Shown here piece by piece: positions 1-10,995 of a stretch of DNA of 11,161 nucleotides. The number at the start of each line of letters is the position of its first letter. Position 1 is the stretch's first letter. The notes under the pieces were generated by a model. It saw only the letters and a list, made by a program, of their open reading frames with translations, was not told the DNA's origin and did not search any database. Source of the DNA: a virus. Its lineage: Duplodnaviria; Heunggongvirae; Uroviricota; Caudoviricetes. Where the stretch lies: IMG/VR virus record IMGVR_UViG_2563366906_000002; one strand, 5' to 3'. Made by a program: the position numbers and the translations under genes.

Positions 1-74
1 GTGAAATTACCGACAAGAAGGGAAAGGGCCTTCCCGAGAGTGGTAAAGGAGAGGCCCTGGAAATACCCCACAGC

Positions 75-137
75 CCCGAAAAAGAGCCAGTCAGTTGCTT
101 AACTGACTGGCATTACCCCTTAGGGGGTGATTTTTTT
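75..137. terminator. Terminator-like hairpin cluster at the backbone/cargo boundary, possibly bidirectional
   Basis: Perfect inverted repeat CCAGTCAGTT-gctt-AACTGACTGG (87-110, extendable to an 11-bp stem 86-111). On the minus strand it is followed by a U-rich tract (complement of CCGAAAAAGAG, 75-85). A second short stem CCCC-tta-GGGG (116-126) is followed by T7 (131-137) on the plus strand. Confidence 0.4.
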
Positions 138-304
138 ACATGACTTTTGATTAGCTGACATTGTAAATCCGCATGTATCAGATGCATTGTTTTGCATGTG
201 GAAATGGGTGTTTTCACTGCCAGCTATCGCTACATGTAGCAAAAACACGGGCTTAATAAGAAATCATTCTGCCATAAGGCATAACTTCCCCGCGTGCTCA
301 GGTA

Positions 305-334
305 TTGACGTCATAGATATGGATCTTTTTTAAT
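305..334 (+). promoter_or_regulatory. Candidate sigma70-type promoter for the TIR-domain gene
   Basis: TTGACG (305-310) with TTTAAT (329-334) after an 18-nt spacer. The fit is weak because an AAGG ribosome-binding site (335-338) sits immediately downstream. By-eye assignment only. Confidence 0.2.
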
Positions 335-348
335 CAAGGTATGGTATT

Positions 349-1296
349 ATGAAGATATTTATTAGTTGGTCAGGTCAGGACAGCCTGGAGATAGCAAAAG
401 TATTACGGGATTGGATACCGAATGTTATTCAAGTAGCTGAGCCGTACGTATCAGCGGAAGATATTGATAAAGGCACTCGCTGGGCGACTGATATATCAAA
501 GGAACTTGATGACTCTTCTTATGGGATTATTTGCCTTACAAAAAATAATATTAATGCACCGTGGATAAATTTTGAGGCGGGTGCTTTAGGTAAAAAGGTT
601 GATAAGAGCCGGGTTAGTCCTTTCTTGTTTAAAATTAAACCATCTGAGATAACAGGCCCAATATTACAATTCCAGTATACTCGTTCGGATGATAAGAACG
701 ATATTTTGAAGTTGATGTTGTCAATAAATAATCAAGCAGGATTTTTGACTGAAGAACGCTTAACTAAAGCTTTCGAGCAATGGTGGCCAAGTTTAGAGCG
801 TGAGTTAGATAACATTCAAGATATTAACCCTGTAGATAAAGATTCCACTAAAAAAACAAAAGGTGATTCGACTTCTGAGATACAAAATCTTTCCAAAATT
901 GTTGAAAGTTTGCTGGATATTAGCCGAACAAATCACCAATTATTGCGTGATCCAGCATCATTATTGCCAGAAGAATATGTTAGCAAAATAATAAACAGGG
1001 AAGGGCGTAAAGAAACTGTTTTAAAAATTGTAGCTTCTGATTTATTATCCATGCATCATTCACTAATTCGTGTAAAAAGAAGATTTATTCGCCGTGGTAT
1101 TGATGAAACATCTAGGAGCGAGTTAATTGAATCATTAAATAAAATGATAATGGATTGTTCTAGAGTAATCGCTCACTTAGATAATTATTGTGGGGTTTCA
1201 TCAAACAATATGTTCAATAGTGCGCTTAGATTGCGGACCAGAAATTTAATTGACATGATGGATGAGGAGGATGCAGAACGGGATGAAATGGAATAA
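349..1296 (+). CDS. TIR-domain protein (about 130-aa N-terminal TIR-like domain plus about 185-aa predicted helical, charged C-terminal domain of unknown function)
   Basis: 315-aa ORF with ATG at 349 and AAGG 10 nt upstream. The N-terminus MKIFISWSGQDS...AKVLRDWI...GTRW...YGIICLTKNNINAPWINFEAG follows the bacterial TIR pattern: hydrophobic-FIS-aromatic-S start, then a W-x3-E motif with the putative catalytic Glu at residue 76 (nt 574-576). The C-terminal half matches nothing I recognise. AT-rich codon usage differs from the P2 backbone. Confidence 0.75.
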   Translation: MKIFISWSGQDSLEIAKVLRDWIPNVIQVAEPYVSAEDIDKGTRWATDISKELDDSSYGIICLTKNNINAPWINFEAGALGKKVDKSRVSPFLFKIKPSEITGPILQFQYTRSDDKNDILKLMLSINNQAGFLTEERLTKAFEQWWPSLERELDNIQDINPVDKDSTKKTKGDSTSEIQNLSKIVESLLDISRTNHQLLRDPASLLPEEYVSKIINREGRKETVLKIVASDLLSMHHSLIRVKRRFIRRGIDETSRSELIESLNKMIMDCSRVIAHLDNYCGVSSNNMFNSALRLRTRNLIDMMDEEDAERDEME

Positions 1297-1347
1297 TCAA
1301 TTTTGACTAATCATAAATAATTTTGCATATATAAACTTATAATGCCG

Positions 1348-1370
1348 CAGCCGCTATTTTTCAGCGGCTG
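1348..1370 (+). terminator. Hairpin downstream of the TIR gene, possible weak intrinsic terminator
   Basis: CAGCCGCT (1348-1355), 7-nt loop, AGCGGCTG (1363-1370), 52 nt after the stop codon. The 3' flank TATATCGTTTATAAT is only moderately U-rich, so termination efficiency is uncertain. Confidence 0.3.
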
Positions 1371-1858
1371 TATATCGTTTATAATGGGTATGTTATTTTT
1401 TATTTTGATAAAATCATTAAAATTGTCGATGTTATATGAATGCACATGTATTATTAATGTTAGAAGATTATGCCTGCTTACGGCTATTGTGCTGAATTCA
1501 ACTATGAACGCATCAGTATTAAAATCGTTCCATGAAATGTTCTTCGTCTACAGCAGATGATGGGCAACGAAAAAATGACGCTGAGTGAGTTGGTCGGGGA
1601 GAATTGTTAGAGGTATTTATGGAGTGGTTTAATAATATCGGTCAATCCTGAGTTGCAGCATCACATAGACGATAGGGAATCTCTCCAGTCGTTCTGGAAT
1701 GGCAGCGTTGAACAACAAGCACAGCGAGGCGTTAGATGCCCATCAGATTGACACAGAGGGTTTATGAATCGCTGGGATTTACTTAGTTTGAAAAATAATA
1801 TATTTATATGTTTTTGTATTGTGTTTGTTAAGGAGTTTGGATTGAAAAGAAAACTGAT

Positions 1859-2047
1859 TTGTGTTATGGCTTTTTGGGGGCGTTGCTGGCTGGTTGTAAT
1901 GAGAGTAATAAAAAAGAAGTTGAGGGTTGTATTGAAAGAGGTGTCCAATATTTTATAGAGATTGGTTCTTACCCTAAATTAAGTGATGGGCGTGATGCTG
2001 TGAAAGTTGCTACTGAACGTTGTAATAGAACAATAACGGCTTTCTGA
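1859..2047 (+). CDS. Small putative lipoprotein (lipobox LLAGC, mature part about 50 aa with three Cys); start codon uncertain
   Basis: The frame contains ...GFLGALLAGC|NESNKKEVEGCIERGVQYFIEIGSYPKLSDGRDAVKVATERCNRTITAF. Its stop (2045-2047) is 2 nt before the ATG of the next gene, indicating translational coupling. In-frame starts are non-canonical: ATT at 1841 (5 nt after an AAGGAG Shine-Dalgarno at 1830-1835) or TTG at 1859. The adjacent frame starting TTG 1842 encodes a textbook n-region MKRKLICVMAF and would join this frame via a 1-nt change in the T5G5 run at 1871-1880. Confidence 0.45.
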   Translation: MCYGFLGALLAGCNESNKKEVEGCIERGVQYFIEIGSYPKLSDGRDAVKVATERCNRTITAF

Positions 2048-2049
2048 TA

Positions 2050-2967
2050 ATGGATTATACGAGCTATATAATAGGACAGCTTCAGGTTGAGGATATTATT
2101 GATGCAATTAAAGGCGTTAATAATACTAATGTCATAAAAGATTATGTGCTGCCTGTAGTATTACCAATTATATCTTCTGTGCTGAGTTACTTTATTGCAA
2201 CTAGGTTGTTTTATCGGCAGGAGTACCTTAAAGCACAAAGAAGAAAGGTAAGCGTTGTAAATAAATGTATTTATGACTACTTTTCTGCAATGACAACGTT
2301 GTTGCAAATTAAAGGGAATTATTATGGTGGGGTAAGTATAAGTGAAAATCCTATCGAGAGGGCTTTAGCTTTTCCTGTTGTGGTTTTTTCTGGTGCTCCT
2401 CTATCATCAGATTTAAGTGAGTTTGCCTGTATATTGAGTCAAAAGGGAGTAGGGAATAATAGAGAGACAGCAAAGACTACTAACTGGGGGGATGCTTTTG
2501 CTGTTAGTGATATAGCAAGAAGGTTTAACAGCCTATTGGCTGCATTAAATGTTAGGAATGATTTTGATGACACCTATAGAGGAATGATTATTGAATCAAC
2601 AGGTTCACCTTTGCCTACGATGCGTTTTAAAAATGATGATATTGTTAATGCTATAGGTAGTAATAAGGCAGCTTATTACATTGATATTACTGAGCAAATA
2701 ATGATTATGATAGATGTTTTGTTGCTTGATATTAATCTGTTGCTCAAAGAGTTGCCATTGTATGCTGAATCGCTGTTTGACAAAAGAGTAATGCAAGAAG
2801 ATTCAGGGATTCTTAAATTCAATGATTTGCACGAACGTTTTCCTCTACTTATGAAACCTGTAACGCCACCTTCGATTAAACTCATGTCTGATTATTTGGG
2901 GTACAGTGAAGATGAGATCTTACGACGCTATCCATACCCGTTCTTTAATATGCATGATTGTGAATGA
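2050..2967 (+). CDS. Hypothetical single-pass membrane protein, 305 aa (N-terminal transmembrane anchor, family unknown)
   Basis: ORF with ATG at 2050 and no own Shine-Dalgarno, coupled to the upstream small ORF. One strongly hydrophobic segment YVLPVVLPIISSVLSYFIATRLFY (residues ~32-55) is followed by basic residues (RQEYLKAQRRK). AT-rich codon usage. No motif I can assign. Confidence 0.7.
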   Translation: MDYTSYIIGQLQVEDIIDAIKGVNNTNVIKDYVLPVVLPIISSVLSYFIATRLFYRQEYLKAQRRKVSVVNKCIYDYFSAMTTLLQIKGNYYGGVSISENPIERALAFPVVVFSGAPLSSDLSEFACILSQKGVGNNRETAKTTNWGDAFAVSDIARRFNSLLAALNVRNDFDDTYRGMIIESTGSPLPTMRFKNDDIVNAIGSNKAAYYIDITEQIMIMIDVLLLDINLLLKELPLYAESLFDKRVMQEDSGILKFNDLHERFPLLMKPVTPPSIKLMSDYLGYSEDEILRRYPYPFFNMHDCE

Positions 2968-3071
2968 ATGTGCATATGTCAGAAGCCGTTTTTATTGTCA
3001 GTTATCGTCAGTGCTGGCGCGCTCTTGGAGTGTTCATGCAACTGCATTAAAACCGCCCCACGAAGCGGGCG

Positions 3072-3090
3072 GGCGAGGCGGGGAAAGCAC
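3072..3090. other. cos: cos cohesive-end sequence of P2-type phages
   Basis: GGCGAGGCGGGGAAAGCAC matches my recollection of the 19-nt P2 cohesive end. It lies ~160 bp beyond the 3' end of the leftward portal gene, as in P2. Recalled, not database-checked. Confidence 0.55.
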
Positions 3091-3220
3091 TGCGCGCTGG
3101 CGGTGGTGATGATTGTCTGAGCGCGTCGTGATGGCGTTTAGATTGTGCGCCGGGGCGTTGGTGTGTCTGCGGGGTGTTTTGTACAGTGGCGAGCGTGTGA
3201 GGGCGTGATGACGGGGGTGT

Positions 3221-3242
3221 AAAAAAGCCGCCCGCAGGCGGC
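3221..3242 (-). terminator. Intrinsic terminator of the P-Q operon
   Basis: On the minus strand, stem GCCGCC-tgcg-GGCGGC followed by T6 (plus strand reads A6 at 3221-3226, then GCCGCC cgca GGCGGC). It begins 5 nt after the Q stop codon. Confidence 0.5.
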
Positions 3243-3247
3243 GATGT

Positions 3248-4282
3248 TCAGCCGTTGTCAGTGTCCAGTGAGTAGTTTTTAAAGCGGATGACCTCCTGAC
3301 CGAGCCAGCCGTTTATTTCCCGAATCCTGTCCTGTAACGGGATAAGTTCATTGCGGACAAAGACCTTTGCCACTTTCTCAATATCGCCCAGCGACCCGAC
3401 GTTTTCCGGCTTGCCACCCATCAACTGAAAGGGGATGCGGTGCGCGTCCAGCAGGTCAGCGGCGCTGGCTTTTTTGATATTAAAAAAATCGTCCTTCGTT
3501 GCCACTTCACTGAGCGGGATAATTTTAATGCCGTCGGCTTTCCCCTGTGGGGCATAGAGAAACAGATTTTTAAAGTTATTGCGGCCTTTCGACTTAACCA
3601 TGTTTTCGCGAAGCATTTCGATATCGTTGCGGTCCTGCACGGCATCGGTGACGTACATGATGTATCCGGCATGTGCGCCGTTTTCGTAATACTTGCGGCG
3701 GAACAGCGTGGCCGACTCATTCAGCCAGGCAGAGTTAAGGGCGCTGAGATATTCCGGCAGGCCGTACAGCTCCTGATTAATATCAGGCTCCAGCAGGTGA
3801 AACACGGAGCCGGGCGCGAAGGCTGTCGGCTCGTTGAAGGACGGCACCCACCAGTAAACATCCTCCTCCACGCCACGACGGGTATATTTGGCCGGTGAGG
3901 TTTCCAGTCTGATGACCTTACCGGTGGTGCTGTAACGCTTTTCCAGAAACGCATTACCGAACACCAGAAAATCCAGCACAAAACGGCTGAAATCCTGCTG
4001 GGAAAGCCACGGGTGCGGGATAAACGTTGAGGCCAGAATATTACGTTTGACGTAAATCGGTGAGCTGTGATGCACGGCAGCACGCAGGCTTTTTGCCAGA
4101 CCGGTAAAGCTGACCGGTGGCTCATACCATCTGCCGTTACTGATGCACTCGACGTAATCCAGAATATCACGGCGGTCGAGTACCGGCACCGGCTCACCAA
4201 AGGTGAATGCCTCCATTTTCGGGGCGCTGGCAGTCATTGTTTTCACCGCTGGCTGCGGTGTTTTCCCTTTTTTCTTACTCAT
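3248..4282 (-). CDS. Q: Portal protein (P2 gpQ-like)
   Basis: 344-aa ORF starting MSKKKGKTPQPAVKTM..., recognised as P2 portal protein Q, with the same length as P2 Q. Its ATG overlaps the stop of the upstream terminase gene (ATGA). Confidence 0.95.
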   Translation of the reverse strand: MSKKKGKTPQPAVKTMTASAPKMEAFTFGEPVPVLDRRDILDYVECISNGRWYEPPVSFTGLAKSLRAAVHHSSPIYVKRNILASTFIPHPWLSQQDFSRFVLDFLVFGNAFLEKRYSTTGKVIRLETSPAKYTRRGVEEDVYWWVPSFNEPTAFAPGSVFHLLEPDINQELYGLPEYLSALNSAWLNESATLFRRKYYENGAHAGYIMYVTDAVQDRNDIEMLRENMVKSKGRNNFKNLFLYAPQGKADGIKIIPLSEVATKDDFFNIKKASAADLLDAHRIPFQLMGGKPENVGSLGDIEKVAKVFVRNELIPLQDRIREINGWLGQEVIRFKNYSLDTDNG

Positions 4283-6054
4283 CAGTAAAACTCCAGAATG
4301 GTGGATGTCAGCGGAGTGCTGATACCGGCGGTGAGTGGCTCATTTAACAGGGCGTGCATGGTCGCCCAGGCGAGGTCGGCGTGGCTGGCTTCCTCGCTGC
4401 GGCTGGCCTCATAGGTGGCGCTGCGTCCGCTGCTGGTCATGGTCTTGCGGATAGCCATAAACGAGCTGGTGATGTCGGTGGCGCTGACGTCATATTCCAG
4501 ACAGCCACGACGGATAACGTCTTTTGCCTTGAGCACCATTGCGGTTTTCATTTCCGGCGTGTAGCGGATGTCGCGTGCGGCGGGATAGAACGAGCGCACG
4601 AGCTGGAACACGCCGACACCGAGGCCGGTGGCATCAATACCGATGTATTCGACGTTGTATTTTTCGGTGAGTTTGCGGATGGATTCAGCCTGGGTGGCAA
4701 AGTCCATGCCTTTCCACTGGTGACGCTCAAGTATTCTGAATTTGCCACCGGCCACCACCGGCGGTGCCAGTACCACGCATCCGGCGCTGTCGCCACGGTG
4801 TGACGGGTCGTAACCAATCCATACCGGGCGGGAGCCGAACGGATTGGCGGCAAACGGCGCATAGTCTTCCCATTCTTCCAGCGTGTCGACCATGCAGCGT
4901 TGCAGCTCCTCGAACGGGAACACCGACGCCTTGTCGTCAACAAATTCACACATGAACAGGTTTTTAAAATCGTCGGCGCTGTTTTCGCGTTTGAGCTGCT
5001 CAATGTCGAACAGCGTGCAGCCACCTTTCAGGGCGTCCTCAATGGTGACAATCTGCCGCCACTGGCCGTCCGCACAGAGAAGCCCTCCGGCAAGGGCGTT
5101 ATGACTGACGTCGATTTCCACGCGTTCGGCGGCGCTGGCGCGTCCCCGGTTGAACAGTTCACCTGACCAGAACGGGTAGGCGTCGTGCGCCAGCGTGGAC
5201 GGGGTGGAGAAATAGGTCGAACGCAGGTGACTCTGTGAGGCCATACCTGATGCCACCTTACGCAGTACCTGAAAATTCGGGATCCAGAAAATCTCGTCGA
5301 CGTACAGGTCGCCGTTATGGCTCTGTGCGGTGTTGGAGTTGGTGCCGAGAAAAATCAGTTTTGCGCCGTTATTGCCCAGGACAATCGGGTCACCGGTCAG
5401 GTCAACGTCAACCAGACGGGCAAAGGCGATGATGTATTCGCGGAACACATACGCCTGCGTTTTACTGGCCGACAGAAAAATCTGGTTATGACCGGTTTTC
5501 AGGGCACGCAGCAGCGCCTCGCGGGAAAAATAAAACGTTGCGCCAATCTGGCGGGATTTCAGGATATCGCGGATGCGGTGCTCAAGCCCGGCGCGATACC
5601 AGTGCAACTGATAGTCGAAAGACTGCTCAAAGAAAATCTGCTCCAGCTTTTCGATGGCTTCGTCGCTGAAAAAATTCTTTTTCGGTTTGCGCCGCCCGCC
5701 TTTGTTGCGGTTAGCGATGTTCGGATTAAGGTCTGCCTCGTTGCCGGTCTGACTGTAGCGGTTGACCCGTGCCAGTCGTTCAATCTGGCGTCCCAGCAGG
5801 TCAATTTCCTTGAAGTCACCGCCGGTTTTCTGCGGTTTGATGATGAGCTGGGTCAGCCGCGCTTCCAGACTCATTTCGACACGGCTGATGGGGGCAACGC
5901 TGTCCCAGCCGTCGCGCTGTTTCCAGCTCTGCACCGTCGGGCGTTTCATCTGCAACATGGCGGCAATCTGCGGCACGGAAAACCCCTGCCAGTACAGCAG
6001 CGCCGCCTGACGACGCGGGTCGTGTAAAAGAGTGGTGTCTGTGGTGATGGTCAT
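4282..6054 (-). CDS. P: Terminase large (ATPase) subunit (P2 gpP-like)
   Basis: ORF-track entry 4282-6084 begins at a TTG. The ATG at 6052-6054 (protein MTITTDTTLLHDPRRQ...) is preceded by GGCGAGG and gives 590 aa, the P2 gpP length. Large-terminase-like content; sits upstream of and coupled to Q. Confidence 0.93.
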   Translation of the reverse strand: MTITTDTTLLHDPRRQAALLYWQGFSVPQIAAMLQMKRPTVQSWKQRDGWDSVAPISRVEMSLEARLTQLIIKPQKTGGDFKEIDLLGRQIERLARVNRYSQTGNEADLNPNIANRNKGGRRKPKKNFFSDEAIEKLEQIFFEQSFDYQLHWYRAGLEHRIRDILKSRQIGATFYFSREALLRALKTGHNQIFLSASKTQAYVFREYIIAFARLVDVDLTGDPIVLGNNGAKLIFLGTNSNTAQSHNGDLYVDEIFWIPNFQVLRKVASGMASQSHLRSTYFSTPSTLAHDAYPFWSGELFNRGRASAAERVEIDVSHNALAGGLLCADGQWRQIVTIEDALKGGCTLFDIEQLKRENSADDFKNLFMCEFVDDKASVFPFEELQRCMVDTLEEWEDYAPFAANPFGSRPVWIGYDPSHRGDSAGCVVLAPPVVAGGKFRILERHQWKGMDFATQAESIRKLTEKYNVEYIGIDATGLGVGVFQLVRSFYPAARDIRYTPEMKTAMVLKAKDVIRRGCLEYDVSATDITSSFMAIRKTMTSSGRSATYEASRSEEASHADLAWATMHALLNEPLTAGISTPLTSTILEFY

Positions 6055-6227
6055 GAATACCTCGCCGTGATGAATACACGGCAAGGCTACTGAGTCGCGC
6101 CCCGCGATTCGCTAAGGTGCTGTTGTGTCAGTGATAAGCCATCCGGGACTGATGGCGGAGGATGCGCATCGTCGGGAAACTGATGCCGACATGTGACTCC
6201 TCTAATCACTATTCAGGACTCCTGACA
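6055..6227. promoter_or_regulatory. Divergent late-promoter region between P (leftward) and O (rightward)
   Basis: 173-bp intergenic region between divergently transcribed late operons. In P2 this interval carries the Ogr-dependent promoters for the PQ and ONML... operons. I could not pin down the individual promoter elements by eye. Confidence 0.5.
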
Positions 6228-7082
6228 ATGGCAAAAAAAGTCTCAAAATTCTTTCGTATCGGCGTTGAGGGTGACACCTGTGACGGGCGTGTCATCAGTG
6301 CGCAAGATATTCAGGAAATGGCGGAAACCTTTGACCCGCGTGTCTATGGTTGCCGTATTAACCTGGAACATCTGCGAGGCATCCTGCCTGACGGCATTTT
6401 TAAACGTTATGGCGATGTGGTCGAACTGAAGGCCGAAAAGATTGACGATGATTCGGCGCTGAAAGGCAAATGGGCGCTGTTTGCGAAAATCACCCCGACC
6501 GATGACCTTATCGCGATGAACAAGGCCGCACAGAAGGTCTACACCTCAATGGAAATTCAGCCGAACTTTGCCAATACCGGCAAATGTTATCTGGTGGGTC
6601 TGGCCGTCACCGATGACCCGGCAAGCCTCGGCACGGAATACCTGGAATTCTGCCGCACGGCAAAACACAACCCCCTGAACCGCTTCAAATTAAGCCCTGA
6701 AAACCTGATTTCAGTGGCAACGCCTGTTGAGCTGGAATTTGAAGACCTGCCTGAAACCGTGTTCACCGCCCTGACCGAAAAGGTGAAATCCATTTTTGGC
6801 CGCAAACAGGCCAGCGATGACGCCCGTCTGAATGACGTGCATGAAGCGGTGACCGCTGTTGCTGAACATGTGCAGGAAAAGCTGAGCGCCACTGAGCAGC
6901 GCCTTGCTGAGATGGAAACCGCCTTTTCCGCACTTAAGCAGGATGTGACTGACAGGGCGGATGAAACCAGTCAGGCATTCACCCGCCTGAAAAACAGTCT
7001 CGACCACACCGAAAGTCTGACCCAGCAGCGCCGCAGCAAGGCCACCGGCGGTGGCGGTGACGCCCTGATGACGAACTGCTGA
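6228..7082 (+). CDS. O: Capsid scaffolding protein (P2 gpO-like)
   Basis: Internal ATG at 6228 (MAKKVSKFFRIGVEGDTCDGRV...) preceded by AGGA; gives 284 aa, the P2 gpO length. The ORF-track entry starting at 6162 is an upstream extension. Confidence 0.93.
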   Translation: MAKKVSKFFRIGVEGDTCDGRVISAQDIQEMAETFDPRVYGCRINLEHLRGILPDGIFKRYGDVVELKAEKIDDDSALKGKWALFAKITPTDDLIAMNKAAQKVYTSMEIQPNFANTGKCYLVGLAVTDDPASLGTEYLEFCRTAKHNPLNRFKLSPENLISVATPVELEFEDLPETVFTALTEKVKSIFGRKQASDDARLNDVHEAVTAVAEHVQEKLSATEQRLAEMETAFSALKQDVTDRADETSQAFTRLKNSLDHTESLTQQRRSKATGGGGDALMTNC

Positions 7083-7140
7083 CCGGCGTCAGTCAGTCCG
7101 GGAAAACCTTCACGATTAACCCTTAATTTCAGGAAAAACT

Positions 7141-8214
7141 ATGCGCCAGGAAACCCGCTTTAAATTTAATGCCTACCTGTCCCGTGTTGCCGAACTGAAC
7201 GGCATCGACGCCGGTGATGTGTCGAAAAAATTCACCGTTGAACCGTCGGTCACCCAGACCCTGATGAACACCATGCAGGAGTCCTCTGACTTTCTGACCC
7301 GCATCAACATTGTGCCGGTCAGCGAAATGAAAGGGGAAAAAATTGGTATTGGTGTCACCGGCTCCATCGCCAGCACCACCGACACCGCCGGTGGCACCGA
7401 GCGTCAGCCGAAGGACTTCTCGAAGCTGGCGTCAAACAAGTACGAATGCGACCAGATTAACTTCGATTTTTATATCCGCTACAAAACGCTGGACCTGTGG
7501 GCGCGTTATCAGGATTTCCAGCTCCGTGTCCGTAACGCCATTATCAAACGCCAGTCCCTTGATTTCATCATGGCCGGTTTTAACGGCGTGAAGCGTGCCG
7601 AAACCTCTGACCGCAGCAGCAATCCGATGCTGCAGGATGTGGCGGTCGGCTGGCTGCAGAAATACCGCAATGAAGCCCCGGCGCGCGTGATGAGCAAGGT
7701 CACTGACGAGGAAGGGCACACCACCTCTGAGGTCATCCGCGTGGGTAAGGGCGGTGATTATGCCAGCCTTGATGCACTGGTGATGGATGCGACCAACAAC
7801 CTGATTGAGCCGTGGTATCAGGAAGACCCTGACCTTGTGGTGATTGTGGGACGTCAGCTACTGGCGGACAAGTATTTTCCCATCGTCAACAAGGAGCAGG
7901 ACAACAGCGAAATGCTGGCCGCTGACGTCATCATCAGCCAGAAACGCATCGGCAACCTGCCAGCGGTACGCGTCCCGTACTTCCCGGCGGATGCGATGCT
8001 CATCACGAAGCTGGAAAACCTGTCCATCTACTACATGGATGACAGCCATCGCCGCGTGATTGTGGAAAACCCGAAACTCGACCGCGTGGAGAACTACGAG
8101 TCAATGAACATTGATTACGTGGTGGAAGACTACGCCGCCGGTTGCCTGGTGGAAAAAATTAAGGTCGGTGATTTCTCCACACCGGCCAGGGCGACCGCAG
8201 AGCCGGGAGCGTGA
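7141..8214 (+). CDS. N: Major capsid protein (P2 gpN-like)
   Basis: 357-aa ORF starting MRQETRFKFNAYLSRVAELNG..., recognised as P2 major capsid precursor N. Same length and position as in P2. Confidence 0.95.
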   Translation: MRQETRFKFNAYLSRVAELNGIDAGDVSKKFTVEPSVTQTLMNTMQESSDFLTRINIVPVSEMKGEKIGIGVTGSIASTTDTAGGTERQPKDFSKLASNKYECDQINFDFYIRYKTLDLWARYQDFQLRVRNAIIKRQSLDFIMAGFNGVKRAETSDRSSNPMLQDVAVGWLQKYRNEAPARVMSKVTDEEGHTTSEVIRVGKGGDYASLDALVMDATNNLIEPWYQEDPDLVVIVGRQLLADKYFPIVNKEQDNSEMLAADVIISQKRIGNLPAVRVPYFPADAMLITKLENLSIYYMDDSHRRVIVENPKLDRVENYESMNIDYVVEDYAAGCLVEKIKVGDFSTPARATAEPGA

Positions 8215-8217
8215 CCG

Positions 8218-8961
8218 ATGACGAGTCCCGCACAGCGCCACATGATGCGGGTCTCGGCAGCGATGACCGCGCAGCGGGAAGCCGCCCCGCTGCGACATGC
8301 AACTGTCTATGAGCAGATGCTGGTCAAGCTGGCCGCAGACCAGCGCACACTGAAAGCGATTTATTCAAAAGAGCTGAAGGCCGCGAAAAAACGCGAACTG
8401 CTGCCGTTCTGGTTGCCGTGGGTGAACGGCGTGCTGGAGCAGGGCAAAGGTGCACAGGATGACATTCTGATGACGGTCATGCTGTGGCGTCTGGATACCG
8501 GCGATATTGCCGGTGCGCTGGAGATTGCCCGTTATGCCCTGAAGTACGGTCTGACCATGCCGGGTAAACACCGCCGCCCCCCGCCGTACATGTTCACCGA
8601 GGAGGTGGCGCTCGCGGCCATGCGTGCTCACGCTGCCGGTGAGTCTGTGGATACCCGCCTGCTGACGGAGACCATTGAACTGACCGCCACGGCTGACATG
8701 CCTGATGAAGTGCGCGCAAAGCTGCACAAAATCACCGGTCTGTTTCTGCGTGACGCTGGTGATGCCGCCGGTGCGCTGGCTCACCTGCAACGTGCGACAC
8801 AGCTCGACTGTCAGGCAGGCGTCAAAAAAGAGATTGAACGACTGGAGCGGGAGCTGAAACCGAAGCCGGAGCCGCAGCCAAAAGCGGCCACCCGTACCCC
8901 GCGTAAGACCCGGAGCGTGACACCGGCAAAACGTGGACGCCCGAAAAAGAAAGCCAGTTAA
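8218..8961 (+). CDS. M: Terminase small (endonuclease) subunit (P2 gpM-like)
   Basis: 247-aa ORF 3 nt after the N stop. Position and length match P2 gpM; basic Pro/Lys-rich C-terminal tail. Confidence 0.92.
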   Translation: MTSPAQRHMMRVSAAMTAQREAAPLRHATVYEQMLVKLAADQRTLKAIYSKELKAAKKRELLPFWLPWVNGVLEQGKGAQDDILMTVMLWRLDTGDIAGALEIARYALKYGLTMPGKHRRPPPYMFTEEVALAAMRAHAAGESVDTRLLTETIELTATADMPDEVRAKLHKITGLFLRDAGDAAGALAHLQRATQLDCQAGVKKEIERLERELKPKPEPQPKAATRTPRKTRSVTPAKRGRPKKKAS

Positions 8962-9060
8962 CAACCGAATGCGCCCCGCGCCAGGGCGGCACGCCGGTCA
9001 GTGAGGGTGAATTACCTGACATTGCACCGGCGTCCACCGCCCGACTTTTCAGAGGTAGTC

Positions 9061-9570
9061 ATGATGACGCTGATTATTCCGCGAAAGGAGGCTCCCGTGT
9101 CCGGTGAGGGTACGGTGGTCATCCCGCAACCGGCAGGCGACGAGCCGGTGATTAAAAACACGTTCTTTTTTCCCGATATCGACCCGAAGCGCGTCCGGGA
9201 ACGTATGCGCCTTGAGCAGACCGTCGCCCCCGCCCGTCTGCGTGAGGCCATCAAGTCAGGCATGGCGGAGACGAATGCGGAGCTGTACGAGTACCGCGAA
9301 CAGAAAATTGCCGCCGGTTTTACGCGTCTGGCGGACGTCCCGGCGGACGACATCGACGGTGAAAGCATCAAAGTTTTTTACTACGAGCGCGCCGTGTGTG
9401 CGATGGCGACCGCGTCGCTTTATGAGCGTTATCGCGGCGTGGATGCCAGTGCGAAAGGTGACAAGAAGGCTGACAGCATTGACAGCACCATTGATGAACT
9501 GTGGCGGGATATGCGCTGGGCGGTGGCGCGTATCCAGGACAAGCCGCGCTGCATCGTGAGTCAAATCTGA
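9061..9570 (+). CDS. L: Head completion/stabilisation protein (P2 gpL-like)
   Basis: ATG at 9061 (MMTLIIPRKEAPVSGEG...) preceded by GAGG; gives 169 aa, the P2 gpL length. The ORF-track entry from 9001 is an upstream extension. Confidence 0.9.
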   Translation: MMTLIIPRKEAPVSGEGTVVIPQPAGDEPVIKNTFFFPDIDPKRVRERMRLEQTVAPARLREAIKSGMAETNAELYEYREQKIAAGFTRLADVPADDIDGESIKVFYYERAVCAMATASLYERYRGVDASAKGDKKADSIDSTIDELWRDMRWAVARIQDKPRCIVSQI

Positions 9571-9773
9571 TGAAGACCTTTGCGCTACAGGGCGACACGC
9601 TCGACGCCATTTGTGTCCGGTATTACGGGCGCACTGAGGGCGTGGTTGAGACCGTGCTCGTCGCAAATCCGGGACTGGCTGAACTGGGTGCGGTGCTGCC
9701 ACACGGCACCGCCGTCGAACTGCCCGACGTTCAGACCGCGCCCGTGGCTGAAACTGTCAATCTGTGGGAGTAA
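9570..9773 (+). CDS. X: Tail protein X (P2 gpX-like)
   Basis: 67-aa protein MKTFALQGDTLDAICVRYYGRTEG... from the ATG at 9570, overlapping the L stop by 1 nt (TGATG). Length and position match P2 X. Confidence 0.9.
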   Translation: MKTFALQGDTLDAICVRYYGRTEGVVETVLVANPGLAELGAVLPHGTAVELPDVQTAPVAETVNLWE

Positions 9774-9776
9774 CGC

Positions 9777-10058
9777 ATGACAGCAGAAGAAAAAAGCGTC
9801 CTGTCGCTTTTCATGATTGGGGTGCTGATTGTTGTCGGCAAGGTGCTTGCCGGTGGTGAACCCATCACCCCGCGTCTGTTTATCGGGCGCATGTTGCTCG
9901 GTGGTTTTGTCTCGATGGTTGCCGGTGTTGTTCTGGTGCAGTTTCCTGACCTGTCACTGCCTGCGGTGTGCGGCATCGGCTCCATGCTGGGTATCGCCGG
10001 TTATCAGGTGATTGAGATTGCCATTCAGCGCCGCTTTAAGGGCAGGGGGAAACCGTAA
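9777..10058 (+). CDS. Y: Holin (P2 gpY-like)
   Basis: 93-aa hydrophobic protein with several predicted transmembrane segments and a charged C-terminus (RRFKGRGKP), located immediately upstream of the endolysin gene. Length matches P2 Y. Confidence 0.9.
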   Translation: MTAEEKSVLSLFMIGVLIVVGKVLAGGEPITPRLFIGRMLLGGFVSMVAGVVLVQFPDLSLPAVCGIGSMLGIAGYQVIEIAIQRRFKGRGKP

Positions 10059-10555
10059 TGCCGGTAATTAACACGCATCAGAATATCGCCGCCTTTCTCG
10101 ACATGCTGGCCGTGTCCGAAGGGACGGCGAATCATCCGCTGACGAAAAACCGGGGCTATGACGTGATAGTCACCGGACTGGACGGAAAGCCGGAAATCTT
10201 CACCGACTACAGTGACCACCCGTTCGCACATGGCCGACCGGCGAAGGTGTTTAACCGTCGCGGTGAAAAATCCACGGCCTCCGGTCGCTATCAGCAGCTT
10301 TACCTGTTCTGGCCGCACTACCGCAAACAGCTTGCCCTGCCGGATTTCAGTCCGTTGTCACAGGACAGACTTGCCATTCAGTTGATCCGCGAACGCGGTG
10401 CACTGGATGACATCCGGGCGGGACGCATTGAGCGCGCCATTTCACGCTGTCGCAATATCTGGGCGTCCCTGCCGGGTGCCGGTTACGGTCAGCGTGAGCA
10501 TTCACTGGAAAAACTGGTCACCGTCTGGCGTACCGCTGGCGGCGTACCGGCTTAA
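10058..10555 (+). CDS. K: Endolysin, phage lysozyme family (P2 gpK-like)
   Basis: 165-aa ORF whose ATG overlaps the Y stop (TAATG). N-terminus MPVINTHQNIAAFLDMLAVSEGT... is typical of phage lysozyme-like endolysins. Length matches P2 K. Confidence 0.92.
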   Translation: MPVINTHQNIAAFLDMLAVSEGTANHPLTKNRGYDVIVTGLDGKPEIFTDYSDHPFAHGRPAKVFNRRGEKSTASGRYQQLYLFWPHYRKQLALPDFSPLSQDRLAIQLIRERGALDDIRAGRIERAISRCRNIWASLPGAGYGQREHSLEKLVTVWRTAGGVPA

Positions 10556-10569
10556 ACGGAGTAAACACC

Positions 10570-10995
10570 ATGAAGAAATTATCCCTTTCACTGATGCTGC
10601 ACGTGTCGCTGGCGCTGATGCTGGCACTGTCCCTGATTTACCCGCAGAGCGTGGCTGTCAGTTTTGTCGCTGCCTGGGCAATTCTGGCGACGGTTATCTG
10701 TGTGGTTGCCGGTGGTGTCGGCGTGTATGCCACTGAGTATGTGCTGGAACGCTACGGGCGGGAGCTGCCGCCGGAATCGCTGGCCGTGAAGATTGTCACG
10801 GCGCTGTTTTTGCAGCCGGTGCCGTGGCGCAGGCGGTCAGTGGCTCTGGTAGTGATGGTGGCGACGTTTATCTCGCTGGTCGCTGCCGGGTGGATTTTTA
10901 CTGCGCTGATTTATCTTGTGGCGTCGCTGTTTTTCCGGCTGATACGTACGGCCTGCCGTCAGCGTTTTGAGGGGCGGGAACCATGTCAAAGCTGA
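10570..10995 (+). CDS. lysA: Lysis-timing membrane protein (P2 LysA-like)
   Basis: 141-aa protein with multiple hydrophobic helices, directly after the endolysin gene. Length and position match P2 lysA. Confidence 0.85.
   Translation: MKKLSLSLMLHVSLALMLALSLIYPQSVAVSFVAAWAILATVICVVAGGVGVYATEYVLERYGRELPPESLAVKIVTALFLQPVPWRRRSVALVVMVATFISLVAAGWIFTALIYLVASLFFRLIRTACRQRFEGREPCQS

What the first reader, a model, noticed from the sequence alone, without database searches (positions are those of the whole stretch)
349..2967. Unclear whether the TIR gene and the lipoprotein/membrane pair are one system or two
The TIR gene is followed by a hairpin (1348-1370) and a ~545-bp gap before the next gene, with a separate Shine-Dalgarno at 1830-1835, which suggests two transcription units. 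The hairpin lacks a strong U-tract, however, and all three genes share orientation and AT-rich composition. A TIR signal producer with a membrane effector would resemble membrane-effector Thoeris-like systems, but I found no Macro or SLOG signature in the 305-aa protein by eye.
Basis: inference. Interest (0 to 1): 0.55.

Follow-up and report, generated by a model that had tools for sequence, protein, structure and literature searches.

The report
Separate TIR and membrane-pair cassettes
The TIR gene is the already published anti-phage gene of P2-like phage AC1, and the lipoprotein/membrane-protein pair after it is a separate, uncharacterised cassette that also occurs without the TIR gene and carries a frameshift in this copy.

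Summary
This is two systems, and probably three modules. The window is about 99.9% identical to P2-like phage AC1. Its TIR protein (349-1296) is identical to protein 3 of the validated '2TM+1TM+TIR' defence of Rousset et al. 2022. The TIR gene's published partners lie upstream, not downstream. In this window they are replaced at the left edge by the last 115 bases of an IS4 element. The validated clone ended at window 1683, so it lacked the lipoprotein/305-aa pair, yet it reproduced the lysogen's defence.

The pair occurs without any TIR gene in four different P2-hotspot contexts, at 99%, 56% and 53% identity, and always as a pair. Homology to the pair-only loci starts at window 1692. TIR-protein homologues (47-78% identity) are solitary in P2 hotspots, on small plasmids and in chromosomes. 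In IMG/VR, 49 of 51 TIR loci lack all four other genes. The 2TM+1TM pair also occurs alone.

The pair has no known family or fold. In this window its lipoprotein gene is frameshifted (T5G5 instead of T5G6). I infer an envelope phage-exclusion role from context only.

The parts
1..115 (+). Right end of an IS4 element. The transposase C-terminal ORF ends at 100-102. The terminal inverted repeat ...CTGACTGGCATTA ends at 115.
   Evidence: Window 1-135 matches annotated IS4 transposase copies in about 2,600 E. coli genomes at 96-97%. Alignment with an IS4 copy and with AC1 puts the IS4/P2 junction at 115|116. No complete E. coli genome has this junction.
112..131 (+). Hairpin plus T-run. It is the remains of the terminator-like palindrome that follows the 1TM gene in AC1 (AAAATCACCCCTTAGGGGGTGATTTTTTT). 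This palindrome was the IS4 target.
   Evidence: -12.1 kcal/mol, z=-2.7. A reference IS4 copy is flanked by a similar 12-bp palindromic duplication, CCCCTACAGGGG.
234..348 (+). Conserved upstream region of the TIR gene. I infer that it holds the gene's own promoter or regulatory region.
   Evidence: Window 234-1536 is 79.5% identical to L023 4888-6197, where the TIR gene is the only cargo between gpA and the portal gene.
349..1296 (+). TIR-domain protein, 315 aa. It has an N-terminal TIR domain with invariant FISWSG and W-x-N-F-E76-A-G motifs, plus a helical C-terminal region. It is identical to protein 3 of the validated 2TM+1TM+TIR system of phage AC1.
   Evidence: Pfam TIR_2. PADLOC TIR-TM E=2.7e-118. 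Sequence in Rousset 2022 Table S2A. 100% identity to AC1 by tblastn. Family alignment.
1347..1371 (+). Stem-loop after the TIR gene, a probable weak intrinsic terminator. It belongs to the TIR module.
   Evidence: In the 78%-identical solitary TIR locus L023 the stem CAGCCGC/GCGGCTG is kept and the loop differs.
1297..1536 (+). 3' flank of the TIR module.
   Evidence: Homologous to the TIR 3' flank in the solitary-TIR locus L023.
1545..1598 (+). Relic of a 77-aa hypothetical gene. In pair-only prophages that gene lies upstream of the pair.
   Evidence: 87% identity to L005-L007 5450-5503.
1659..1683 (+). Annealing site of the reverse primer used to clone the validated system (pFD240). It marks the end of the tested fragment.
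   Evidence: Primer in Table S2A of PMC9122126. Single exact match in the window.
1692..1841 (+). Upstream region that travels with the lipoprotein/305-aa pair. Position 1692 is the left boundary of the pair module.
   Evidence: Two independent pair-only contexts (L001 and L005-L007) become homologous to the window at exactly 1692. No sigma-70 consensus was found here.
1842..2047 (+). Lipoprotein gene, frameshifted in this window. Intact copies encode a 68-aa prolipoprotein, MKRKLICVMAFWGALLAG|C..., giving a 50-aa mature part with two further conserved Cys residues. The T5G5 tract is at 1871-1880.
   Evidence: Orthologues with lipoboxes LLSGC-D in L004 and L020. PHROG 32041, unknown function.
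2050..2967 (+). 305-aa single-pass membrane protein (TM about residues 32-54) with an all-helical four-helix-bundle domain that I predict to be cytoplasmic. The start codon is 2 nt after the lipoprotein stop codon.
   Evidence: ORF. AlphaFold2 model with a 53-sequence alignment: pLDDT 87, pTM 0.81. K/R bias on the C-terminal flank of the TM in 40 of 53 family members. PHROG 21267, unknown function. No hit in Pfam, PADLOC, NCBIfam, PDB or BFVD.

Best explanation
The region is a mosaic of independently mobile cargo cassettes in the cos-proximal defence hotspot (gpA to portal) of a P2-like prophage.

(1) The TIR gene, with about 115 bp of its own upstream sequence and its downstream hairpin (234-1536), is the TIR component of the experimentally validated '2TM+1TM+TIR' system of phage AC1. 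Its published partners are encoded upstream. In this genome an IS4 insertion in the 1TM-TIR intergenic palindrome separates them from it, or they are absent.

(2) The lipoprotein/305-aa pair (1692-2967) is a different two-gene unit that is not needed for the TIR defence.

Inferred mechanisms:
- The TIR protein has an invariant catalytic-type glutamate and a helical C-terminal region. It most likely acts as a self-contained sensor-effector that consumes NAD+ or makes an NAD-derived product on infection, causing abortive infection.
- The pair most likely forms an inner-membrane complex. A small disulfide-bonded lipoprotein on the periplasmic face would contact the short periplasmic N-terminus of a bitopic protein whose helical bundle is cytoplasmic. 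This complex would exclude superinfecting phages at the envelope.
- In this window the pair is probably inactive. The lipoprotein frame is broken, and translational coupling to the 305-aa gene is lost.
For: Shown:
- The TIR protein is identical to protein 3 of pFD240 and matches PADLOC TIR-TM at 2.7e-118.
- In AC1 and in 14 complete E. coli genomes, the genes directly upstream match PADLOC 2TM-TIR (2e-58) and 1TM-TIR (3e-75).
- The pFD240 reverse primer anneals at window 1659-1683. [quoted passage not shown]
- The pair occurs without TIR, 2TM or 1TM in E. coli MS 16-3 and L043 (99% identity), in L005-L007 (98.7%), in L004 (56%) and in L020-L022 (53%). The lipoprotein is always directly upstream.
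- Pair-only loci become homologous to the window at exactly 1692.
- TIR homologues of 47-78% identity are solitary. They are the sole cargo between gpA and portal (L023-L026, L049), the cargo of a small Klebsiella plasmid (L034-L037), or chromosomal in Serratia (L027-L029).
- 49 of 51 IMG/VR loci with a TIR relative have none of the other four genes within 5 kb.
- 2TM+1TM occur without TIR in two P2-like prophages (83-86% identity) and in a lambdoid prophage (62% and 53%).
- Window 234-1536 aligns at 79.5% with the solitary-TIR locus, hairpin stem included.

Inferred:
- Catalytic competence of the TIR domain, from invariant E76 and general knowledge of TIR NADases.
- Topology of the 305-aa protein, from the K/R bias.
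- An exclusion role for the pair, from its hotspot context.
Against: - Every copy of this particular TIR allele that I found (14 complete E. coli genomes, AC1, 2 IMG/VR contigs, the window) also carries the pair downstream. These copies are 99.5-100% identical, so this amounts to one evolutionary event.
- There are no transcript data. The hairpin has a weak T tract, and no sigma-70 consensus was found in 1692-1841. Read-through from the TIR gene into the pair is therefore possible.
- The published experiment used AC1, whose lipoprotein gene is already frameshifted. An intact pair has never been tested with or without the TIR gene.
- Rousset et al. did not test the three cloned genes singly, so autonomy of the TIR protein is inferred only from gene distribution.
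- There is no functional evidence of any kind for the pair.
Confidence: 0.8

Rival explanations
1. One system. The TIR protein makes a nucleotide signal that activates the downstream lipoprotein/305-aa membrane pair, as in a Thoeris-like system with a membrane effector.
For: Same strand, same AT-rich composition and adjacency. Perfect co-occurrence in the AC1-type cassette. The hairpin is a weak terminator.
Against: - The validated clone lacked the pair.
- The lipoprotein gene is frameshifted in AC1 itself, yet the AC1 lysogen defends.
- The pair is found in four contexts without a TIR gene. 49 of 51 viral TIR loci and all diverged TIR homologues examined lack the pair.
- The 305-aa protein has no SLOG, Macro, SIR2 or other nucleotide-binding signature or fold.
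- The close family of the pair has 2-3 clusters. The TIR family has 1,508.
Confidence: 0.04
2. The pair is a facultative accessory of the AC1-type island. It would tune toxicity or phage range of the TIR defence without being required.
For: The five genes stay together in all 18 AC1-type copies seen. P2 hotspots are reported to meld components into chimeras (PMC13586616).
Against: The co-occurrence is one recent lineage. 5 of those 18 copies carry the frameshift, apparently without loss of the island. The module boundaries (1536, 1692) and the relic at 1545-1598 indicate simple juxtaposition.
Confidence: 0.08
3. The pair is independent of the TIR gene but is not an anti-phage system. It could be a lysogenic-conversion envelope factor, an addiction module, or a decaying remnant.
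For: No match to any defence model. Frameshifted alleles are common. P2 hotspots also carry non-defence cargo such as partition systems and toxins.
Against: - The pair is conserved as a pair at 53-60% identity, and it can be the only cargo of the hotspot (L020).
- Distant family members lie next to type I restriction-modification genes, on a plasmid and beside integrases.
- Most untested unknown loci at the related P4 hotspot proved defensive (6 of 8).
Confidence: 0.3
4. 2TM+1TM+TIR is an obligate three-gene signalling system, as in the published model. If so, the IS4 insertion has orphaned the TIR gene in this genome, and it is inactive on its own.
For: Rousset et al. proposed that the TIR protein activates the transmembrane proteins. 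DefenseFinder and PADLOC model three genes. IS4 lies between 1TM and TIR.
Against: Full-length TIR homologues are solitary in every diverged context examined. 2TM+1TM occur alone. A terminator-like hairpin and a 240-bp spacer separate 1TM from TIR even in AC1, and the TIR upstream region is conserved in solitary loci. One survey did not detect the three-gene combination in its bacterial genome set.
Confidence: 0.25

Closest known systems
2TM+1TM+TIR system of P2-like phage AC1 (Rousset et al. 2022, PMC9122126; DefenseFinder Rst_2TM_1TM_TIR; PADLOC 2TM-TIR / 1TM-TIR / TIR-TM)
   Same: The TIR protein is identical. The P2 hotspot, flanks, hairpin and downstream genes are the same, and the DNA is about 99.9% identical to AC1 from window 116 onwards.
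   Different: In the window an IS4 end replaces the sequence upstream of 116, so the 2TM and 1TM genes are not adjacent and may be absent. The lipoprotein/305-aa pair was never part of the published system.
Thoeris (ThsB TIR signal producer with a ThsA SIR2-SLOG or Macro-TM effector)
   Same: A TIR-domain protein with the conserved glutamate lies in a defence locus next to membrane proteins.
   Different: There is no ThsA-like SLOG, Macro or SIR2 protein. The best model for the TIR protein is TIR-TM, not ThsB. The TIR family is mostly solitary, so no conserved effector partner exists.
Single-polypeptide TIR effectors (the TIR-NLR of the P4 hotspot, TIR-APAZ of short pAgo systems, TIR-SAVED of CBASS). 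This comparison rests on my own knowledge.
   Same: A TIR domain is fused to a non-catalytic region in one protein that can stand alone as a defence gene.
   Different: The C-terminal part here is a short helical region of about 170 aa with one conserved motif (E186...R193-x-N195...P202...Y210). It has no NTPase, APAZ or SAVED domain, and no solved relative was found by sequence search.
P2 old, tin and fun(Z) exclusion genes
   Same: They occupy the same kind of prophage accessory locus. old and tin sit in this same gpA-cos-Q hotspot. They are AT-rich, lysogen-expressed cargo that excludes other phages.
   Different: No sequence relationship was detected.
Envelope superinfection-exclusion proteins (T5 Llp and phi80/N15 Cor lipoproteins; T4 Imm, P22 SieA, HK97 gp15 inner-membrane proteins). 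This comparison rests on my own knowledge and was not tested by sequence.
   Same: A small prophage-encoded lipoprotein and/or a single-pass inner-membrane protein encoded by an accessory gene.
   Different: Here the unit is a conserved two-gene pair with a large helical bundle predicted to be cytoplasmic. No homology was established and no receptor or injection phenotype is known.

Membership tests
Rst_2TM_1TM_TIR (2TM+1TM+TIR) | A TIR protein matching the system's TIR model | tested here: met
   PADLOC PDLC03016 TIR-TM, E=2.7e-118, residues 1-295. Identical to pFD240 protein 3.
Rst_2TM_1TM_TIR (2TM+1TM+TIR) | 2TM and 1TM genes directly upstream of the TIR gene | tested here: inconclusive
   They are present in AC1 and in 14 E. 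coli genomes. In the window the sequence upstream of 116 is IS4 and the window ends inside it. The genes may lie beyond the IS4 or be lost.
Rst_2TM_1TM_TIR (2TM+1TM+TIR) | The three genes form one conserved unit across diverged homologues | tested here: not met
   The TIR gene is solitary in 49 of 51 viral loci and in all 47-78% homologues examined. 2TM+1TM occur alone in L033, L046 and L047.
Rst_2TM_1TM_TIR (2TM+1TM+TIR) | Anti-phage activity | not testable with these tools
   Published for the AC1 clone against lambda, LF82_P8 and P2. Not tested for this IS4-bearing copy.
Thoeris | An adjacent ThsA-type effector (SIR2-SLOG or Macro-TM) | tested here: not met
Thoeris | Conserved co-occurrence of the TIR gene with its effector | tested here: not met
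Spanin pair (Rz/Rz1-type); considered for the lipoprotein plus membrane protein | Location in the lysis cassette, i-spanin first with an N-in/C-out periplasmic coiled coil, and a proline-rich o-spanin lipoprotein | tested here: not met
   The pair lies in the gpA-cos hotspot, far from the lysis genes at about 9.8-11 kb. The lipoprotein gene comes first. The K/R bias predicts a cytoplasmic C-terminal domain. The mature lipoprotein is not proline-rich.
Bacterial lipoprotein (Lgt/LspA substrate) | A signal peptide with a positive n-region, a hydrophobic core and a lipobox L-[AS]-[GA]-C | tested here: met
   This is met in intact alleles: MKRKLICVMAFWGALLAG|C, and LLSG|C in L004 and L020. In the window the frame is broken upstream of the lipobox.
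IS4 | A transposase C-terminus and terminal inverted repeat ending ...GGCATTA, next to a palindromic target | tested here: met

The most novel reading that the evidence does not exclude
The published '2TM+1TM+TIR' system is not one system. It is a juxtaposition of two autonomous defences: a widespread stand-alone TIR protein with its own C-terminal sensor region, and a 2TM+1TM membrane pair. The lipoprotein/305-aa pair (PHROGs 32041 and 21267) next to them is a third, new kind of envelope-based phage-exclusion system. The 305-aa protein belongs to a family of about 170 representative clusters with no known fold relative.
Probability: 0.3. Interest if true: 0.6.

Novelty: already known. Interest (0 to 1): 0.35.

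Why it matters
The TIR gene belongs to a defence locus that has already been tested experimentally, and the downstream pair is unrelated cargo. This stops the region being misread as a new Thoeris-like system.

Two points of modest value remain:
- Gene distribution suggests the catalogued three-gene TIR system is a composite. That would affect how DefenseFinder and PADLOC score 'incomplete' hits, and it points to a common single-gene TIR defence on plasmids and prophages.
- The lipoprotein/305-aa pair is a compact, conserved and unannotated occupant of a hotspot where unknown genes often prove defensive. It is a reasonable candidate for testing, provided the intact T5G6 allele is used rather than the frameshifted AC1 allele.

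Tried and rejected
- Thoeris-like reading: rejected. There is no ThsA-type domain or fold and no co-occurrence.
- Spanin reading of the pair: rejected on location, gene order and predicted topology.
- Function of the 305-aa protein: nothing informative came from any search.
  - Pfam, PADLOC and NCBIfam gave nothing.
  - PHROG 21267 has unknown function.
  - A PDB profile search gave nothing.
  - The single-sequence AlphaFold2 model was unusable, pLDDT 33.
  - The afdb50 library was not available.
- Word-indexed homologue search with the family profile returned only 4 proteins.
- The family alignment was too divergent for a viral-contig scan.
- A genome-contig scan with the TIR protein gave only 4 distant hits to the TIR domain alone.
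- A non-coding RNA in the 545-bp gap: no Rfam match in 1-3300.
- The ORFs in the gap (1342-1560 on +, 1661-1948 on -) have no family hits. They overlap the hairpin and the module boundary, so I treat them as spurious.
- Promoter search for the pair: no sigma-70 consensus in 1692-1841. This is inconclusive.
- Source genome of the window: the IS4/TIR junction was not found in 5,426 complete E. coli genomes, in IMG/VR or in JGI metagenomes.
- Literature: no paper in the library dissects the three genes.
Full report
**What is in the window.** Bases 3248-10995 encode P2-type portal, terminase, scaffold, capsid, head-completion and lysis genes at 50-63% GC. Bases 116-2967 are AT-rich cargo at 32-39% GC. 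Window 250-3100 is 99.5-99.9% identical to 14 of 5,426 complete E. coli genomes, and 99.9% identical to Escherichia phage P2_AC1 (OV192280). In these relatives the cargo lies between the replication gene gpA and the portal gene. This is the cos-proximal defence hotspot described by Rousset et al. 2022 (PMC9122126).

**Checking the observation.**
- The TIR ORF (349-1296) is real. It matches Pfam TIR_2 at E=7.5e-10 and PADLOC 'TIR-TM' at E=2.7e-118.
- The hairpin is at 1347-1371. It has a 9-bp stem with 6 G-C pairs and a weak T tail, and folds at -18.7 kcal/mol with z=-2.3.
- The gap 1297-1841 is 545 bp. AAGGAG lies at 1830-1835, 6 nt before TTG 1842.
- The 305-aa ORF (2050-2967) starts 2 nt after the lipoprotein stop codon.
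- The lipoprotein ORF is broken here. From TTG 1842 it reads LKRKLICVMAFWGRCWLVV... and stops at 1956-1958. Intact relatives read MKRKLICVMAFWGALLAG|CNES..., a canonical lipoprotein signal.
- The difference is one G in a T5G6 tract at window 1871-1880. T5G5 occurs in the window, AC1, E. coli M21816 and two IMG/VR contigs. T5G6 occurs in strains 0-4 and EC17CM6. 13 of the 14 complete genomes have the small gene annotated, so they probably carry T5G6 too. An in-frame T7G4 variant occurs in the MS 16-3 type.

**The TIR gene's published partners are upstream.** In AC1 and the 14 genomes, the two genes before the TIR gene (124-126 aa and 185 aa) match PADLOC '2TM-TIR' (2e-58) and '1TM-TIR' (3e-75). 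Table S2A of Rousset et al. lists plasmid pFD240, '2TM + 1TM + TIR', from phage AC1. Its protein 3 is letter-for-letter the window's TIR protein. The paper reports that the clone reproduces the AC1 lysogen's protection against lambda and LF82_P8 and also protects against P2. The reverse cloning primer anneals at window 1659-1683. The tested fragment therefore stopped inside the 545-bp gap and did not contain the lipoprotein/305-aa pair. AC1 itself carries the frameshifted lipoprotein allele.

**The left end of the window is IS4.** The window is collinear with AC1 only from about position 112-116. Bases 1-115 are the right end of IS4. They match annotated IS4 transposase genes in about 2,600 E. 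coli genomes. An ORF encoding the transposase C-terminus ends at 100-102, and the terminal repeat ...CTGACTGGCATTA ends at 115. IS4 sits in the palindrome that follows the 1TM gene in AC1 (AAAATCACCCCTTAGGGGGTGATTTTTTT). A reference IS4 copy is flanked by a similar 12-bp palindromic duplication. No complete E. coli genome, IMG/VR contig or JGI metagenome contig has this junction. Whether 2TM and 1TM survive beyond the IS4 cannot be seen from the window.

**The pair is its own module.**
- The 305-aa protein has only two or three close clusters among billions of proteins.
- Every close relative is preceded by a lipoprotein homologue and lies in a P2 hotspot without TIR, 2TM or 1TM:
  - E. coli MS 16-3 and an IMG/VR contig at 99% identity, followed by a 333-aa gene;
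  - the L005-L007 prophages (pair-only P2-like prophages from Logan/NCBI assemblies; the cluster representative is named from Salmonella Potsdam) at 98.7%, after DUF3850;
  - L004 at 56%, followed by a 433-aa gene;
  - L020-L022 at 53%, where the pair is the only cargo between gpA and the portal gene.
- Two independent pair-only contexts become homologous to the window at exactly 1692.
- Window 1545-1598 is a relic of the 77-aa gene that precedes the pair in L005-L007.

**The TIR gene is also its own module, and so is 2TM+1TM.**
- The TIR family is large, with 1,508 clusters at E<=1e-10.
- Full-length homologues are solitary in every context examined:
  - 78% identity in E. coli and 74% in Klebsiella, as the only gene between gpA and the portal gene;
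  - 61% on a small Klebsiella mobilisable plasmid;
  - 60% in the Serratia chromosome;
  - 47% next to an unrelated prophage.
  None has a 2TM, 1TM, lipoprotein or 305-aa homologue within 5 kb.
- An IMG/VR scan with the family profile found 51 loci. Only the two AC1-type contigs carry the other four genes.
- Window 234-1536 aligns at 79.5% with the solitary-TIR E. coli locus. The alignment includes 115 bp upstream of the gene and the hairpin, whose stem is kept while the loop differs.
- 2TM+1TM occur without a TIR gene in two P2-like prophages (83-86% identity) and in a lambdoid prophage (62% and 53%).
- All five genes occur together only in one near-identical lineage.
- Rousset et al. did not test the three genes singly. 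One survey did not detect the three-gene system in its bacterial genome set.
- P2 and P4 hotspots are known to hold several systems and to swap and mix them.

**What the proteins look like.**
- The TIR family has invariant FISWSG and W72-x-N-F-E76-A-G motifs and a conserved central motif (E186...R193-x-N195...P202...Y210) before a variable tail. From general knowledge of TIR NADases, E76 is the likely catalytic glutamate. No solved relative was found by sequence.
- The 305-aa protein belongs to a family of 167 representative clusters at 22-28% identity and about 280-300 aa. It has no Pfam, PADLOC or NCBIfam match, and PHROG 21267 has unknown function.
- With a 53-sequence alignment, AlphaFold2 gives pLDDT 87 and pTM 0.81. 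The model has an N-terminal helix, one TM (about residues 32-54) that continues as a long helix, and a four-helix bundle.
- K/R residues are enriched on the C-terminal side of the TM in 40 of 53 members and on the N-terminal side in 4. This predicts an N-out, C-in topology.
- Distant members lack the lipoprotein. They lie near type I restriction-modification genes, on an Erwinia plasmid, or beside integrase and transposase genes.
- The mature lipoprotein is 50 aa with two further conserved cysteines. Orthologues have Asp at position +2, which from my own knowledge is the inner-membrane retention signal. The E. coli type has Asn there.

**How it most likely works.**
- Shown: the modules are physically separable, and the TIR-containing fragment defends without the pair.
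- Inferred for the TIR protein: it senses infection through its C-terminal region and acts through its TIR domain on NAD+, causing abortive infection. The role of 2TM and 1TM, if any, is unresolved.
- Inferred for the pair: it forms an inner-membrane complex that excludes incoming phages at the envelope, or signals envelope damage to the cytoplasmic bundle. This rests on context alone.
- In this window the pair is probably silent. Ribosomes starting at 1842 stop 91 nt before the 305-aa start codon, so coupling is lost. The 1859 start has no Shine-Dalgarno sequence. Slippage of -1 on the T5 tract could restore the frame, but that is speculation.

**Verdict.** The TIR gene and the pair are two systems, and the region probably holds three modules. 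The TIR gene is already known and experimentally characterised. The residual interest lies in the apparently composite nature of the catalogued three-gene system and in the untested lipoprotein/305-aa pair.

Noticed in passing
window 1-115: The window begins inside an IS4 element, inserted in the palindromic terminator between the 1TM and TIR genes of the AC1-type cassette. The junction is absent from 5,426 complete E. coli genomes, IMG/VR and JGI metagenomes.
   Followed up: yes
window 1871-1880: A T5G5 homopolymer tract frameshifts the lipoprotein gene. T5G5 occurs on cassettes with both the 124-aa and the 126-aa 2TM allele (L041/L042, and AC1/M21816). It is therefore either recurrent slippage or has moved by recombination. 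A -1 ribosomal slip on GCU-UUU-UGG would restore the frame; this was not tested.
   Followed up: partly
window 3072-3090: GGCGAGGCGGGGAAAGCAC lies here. From my own knowledge this is the 19-nt P2 cohesive-end sequence. The linear AC1 phage record ends at the base corresponding to window 3071. The 305-aa gene therefore lies about 100 bp from the virion DNA end.
   Followed up: partly
window 1545-1598: A 54-bp relic (87% identity) of a 77-aa hypothetical gene that precedes the pair in the pair-only prophages L005-L007. It looks like a recombination scar between the TIR module and the pair module.
   Followed up: yes
L002 3908-4282 and L003 2902-3282: The 2TM protein has a length polymorphism in its N-terminal Gly-Lys repeat: 124 aa (GKGKGN) or 126 aa (GKGKGKGN).
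   Followed up: no
L004 1808-3109: In the 56%-identity pair locus, the next gene encodes a 433-aa protein with a weak MauJ hit and an R-x4-H motif (MIRNTLVHSSDRY) that resembles HEPN. It is a different co-resident cargo gene.
   Followed up: no
L001 7646-8647 and L043 1634-2632: In E. coli MS 16-3 the pair is followed by a 333-aa protein with hydrophobic C-terminal helices. It has no PADLOC, PHROG or NCBIfam match.
   Followed up: partly
L034-L037: A 61%-identical TIR homologue is the only cargo gene of a small mobilisable Klebsiella plasmid (RelE-type toxin-antitoxin, PriCT replicase, MobC and a relaxase). It was listed in 365 blocks of the assembly collection, so this may be a common plasmid-borne single-gene TIR defence.
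   Followed up: partly
several E. coli RefSeq records (e.g. NZ_CP133923.1, NZ_CP190018.1): These chromosome records start at the P2 gpA replication gene rather than at dnaA. The cause is presumably automated start-fixing on a 'replication' gene. The prophage therefore sits at coordinate 1.
   Followed up: no
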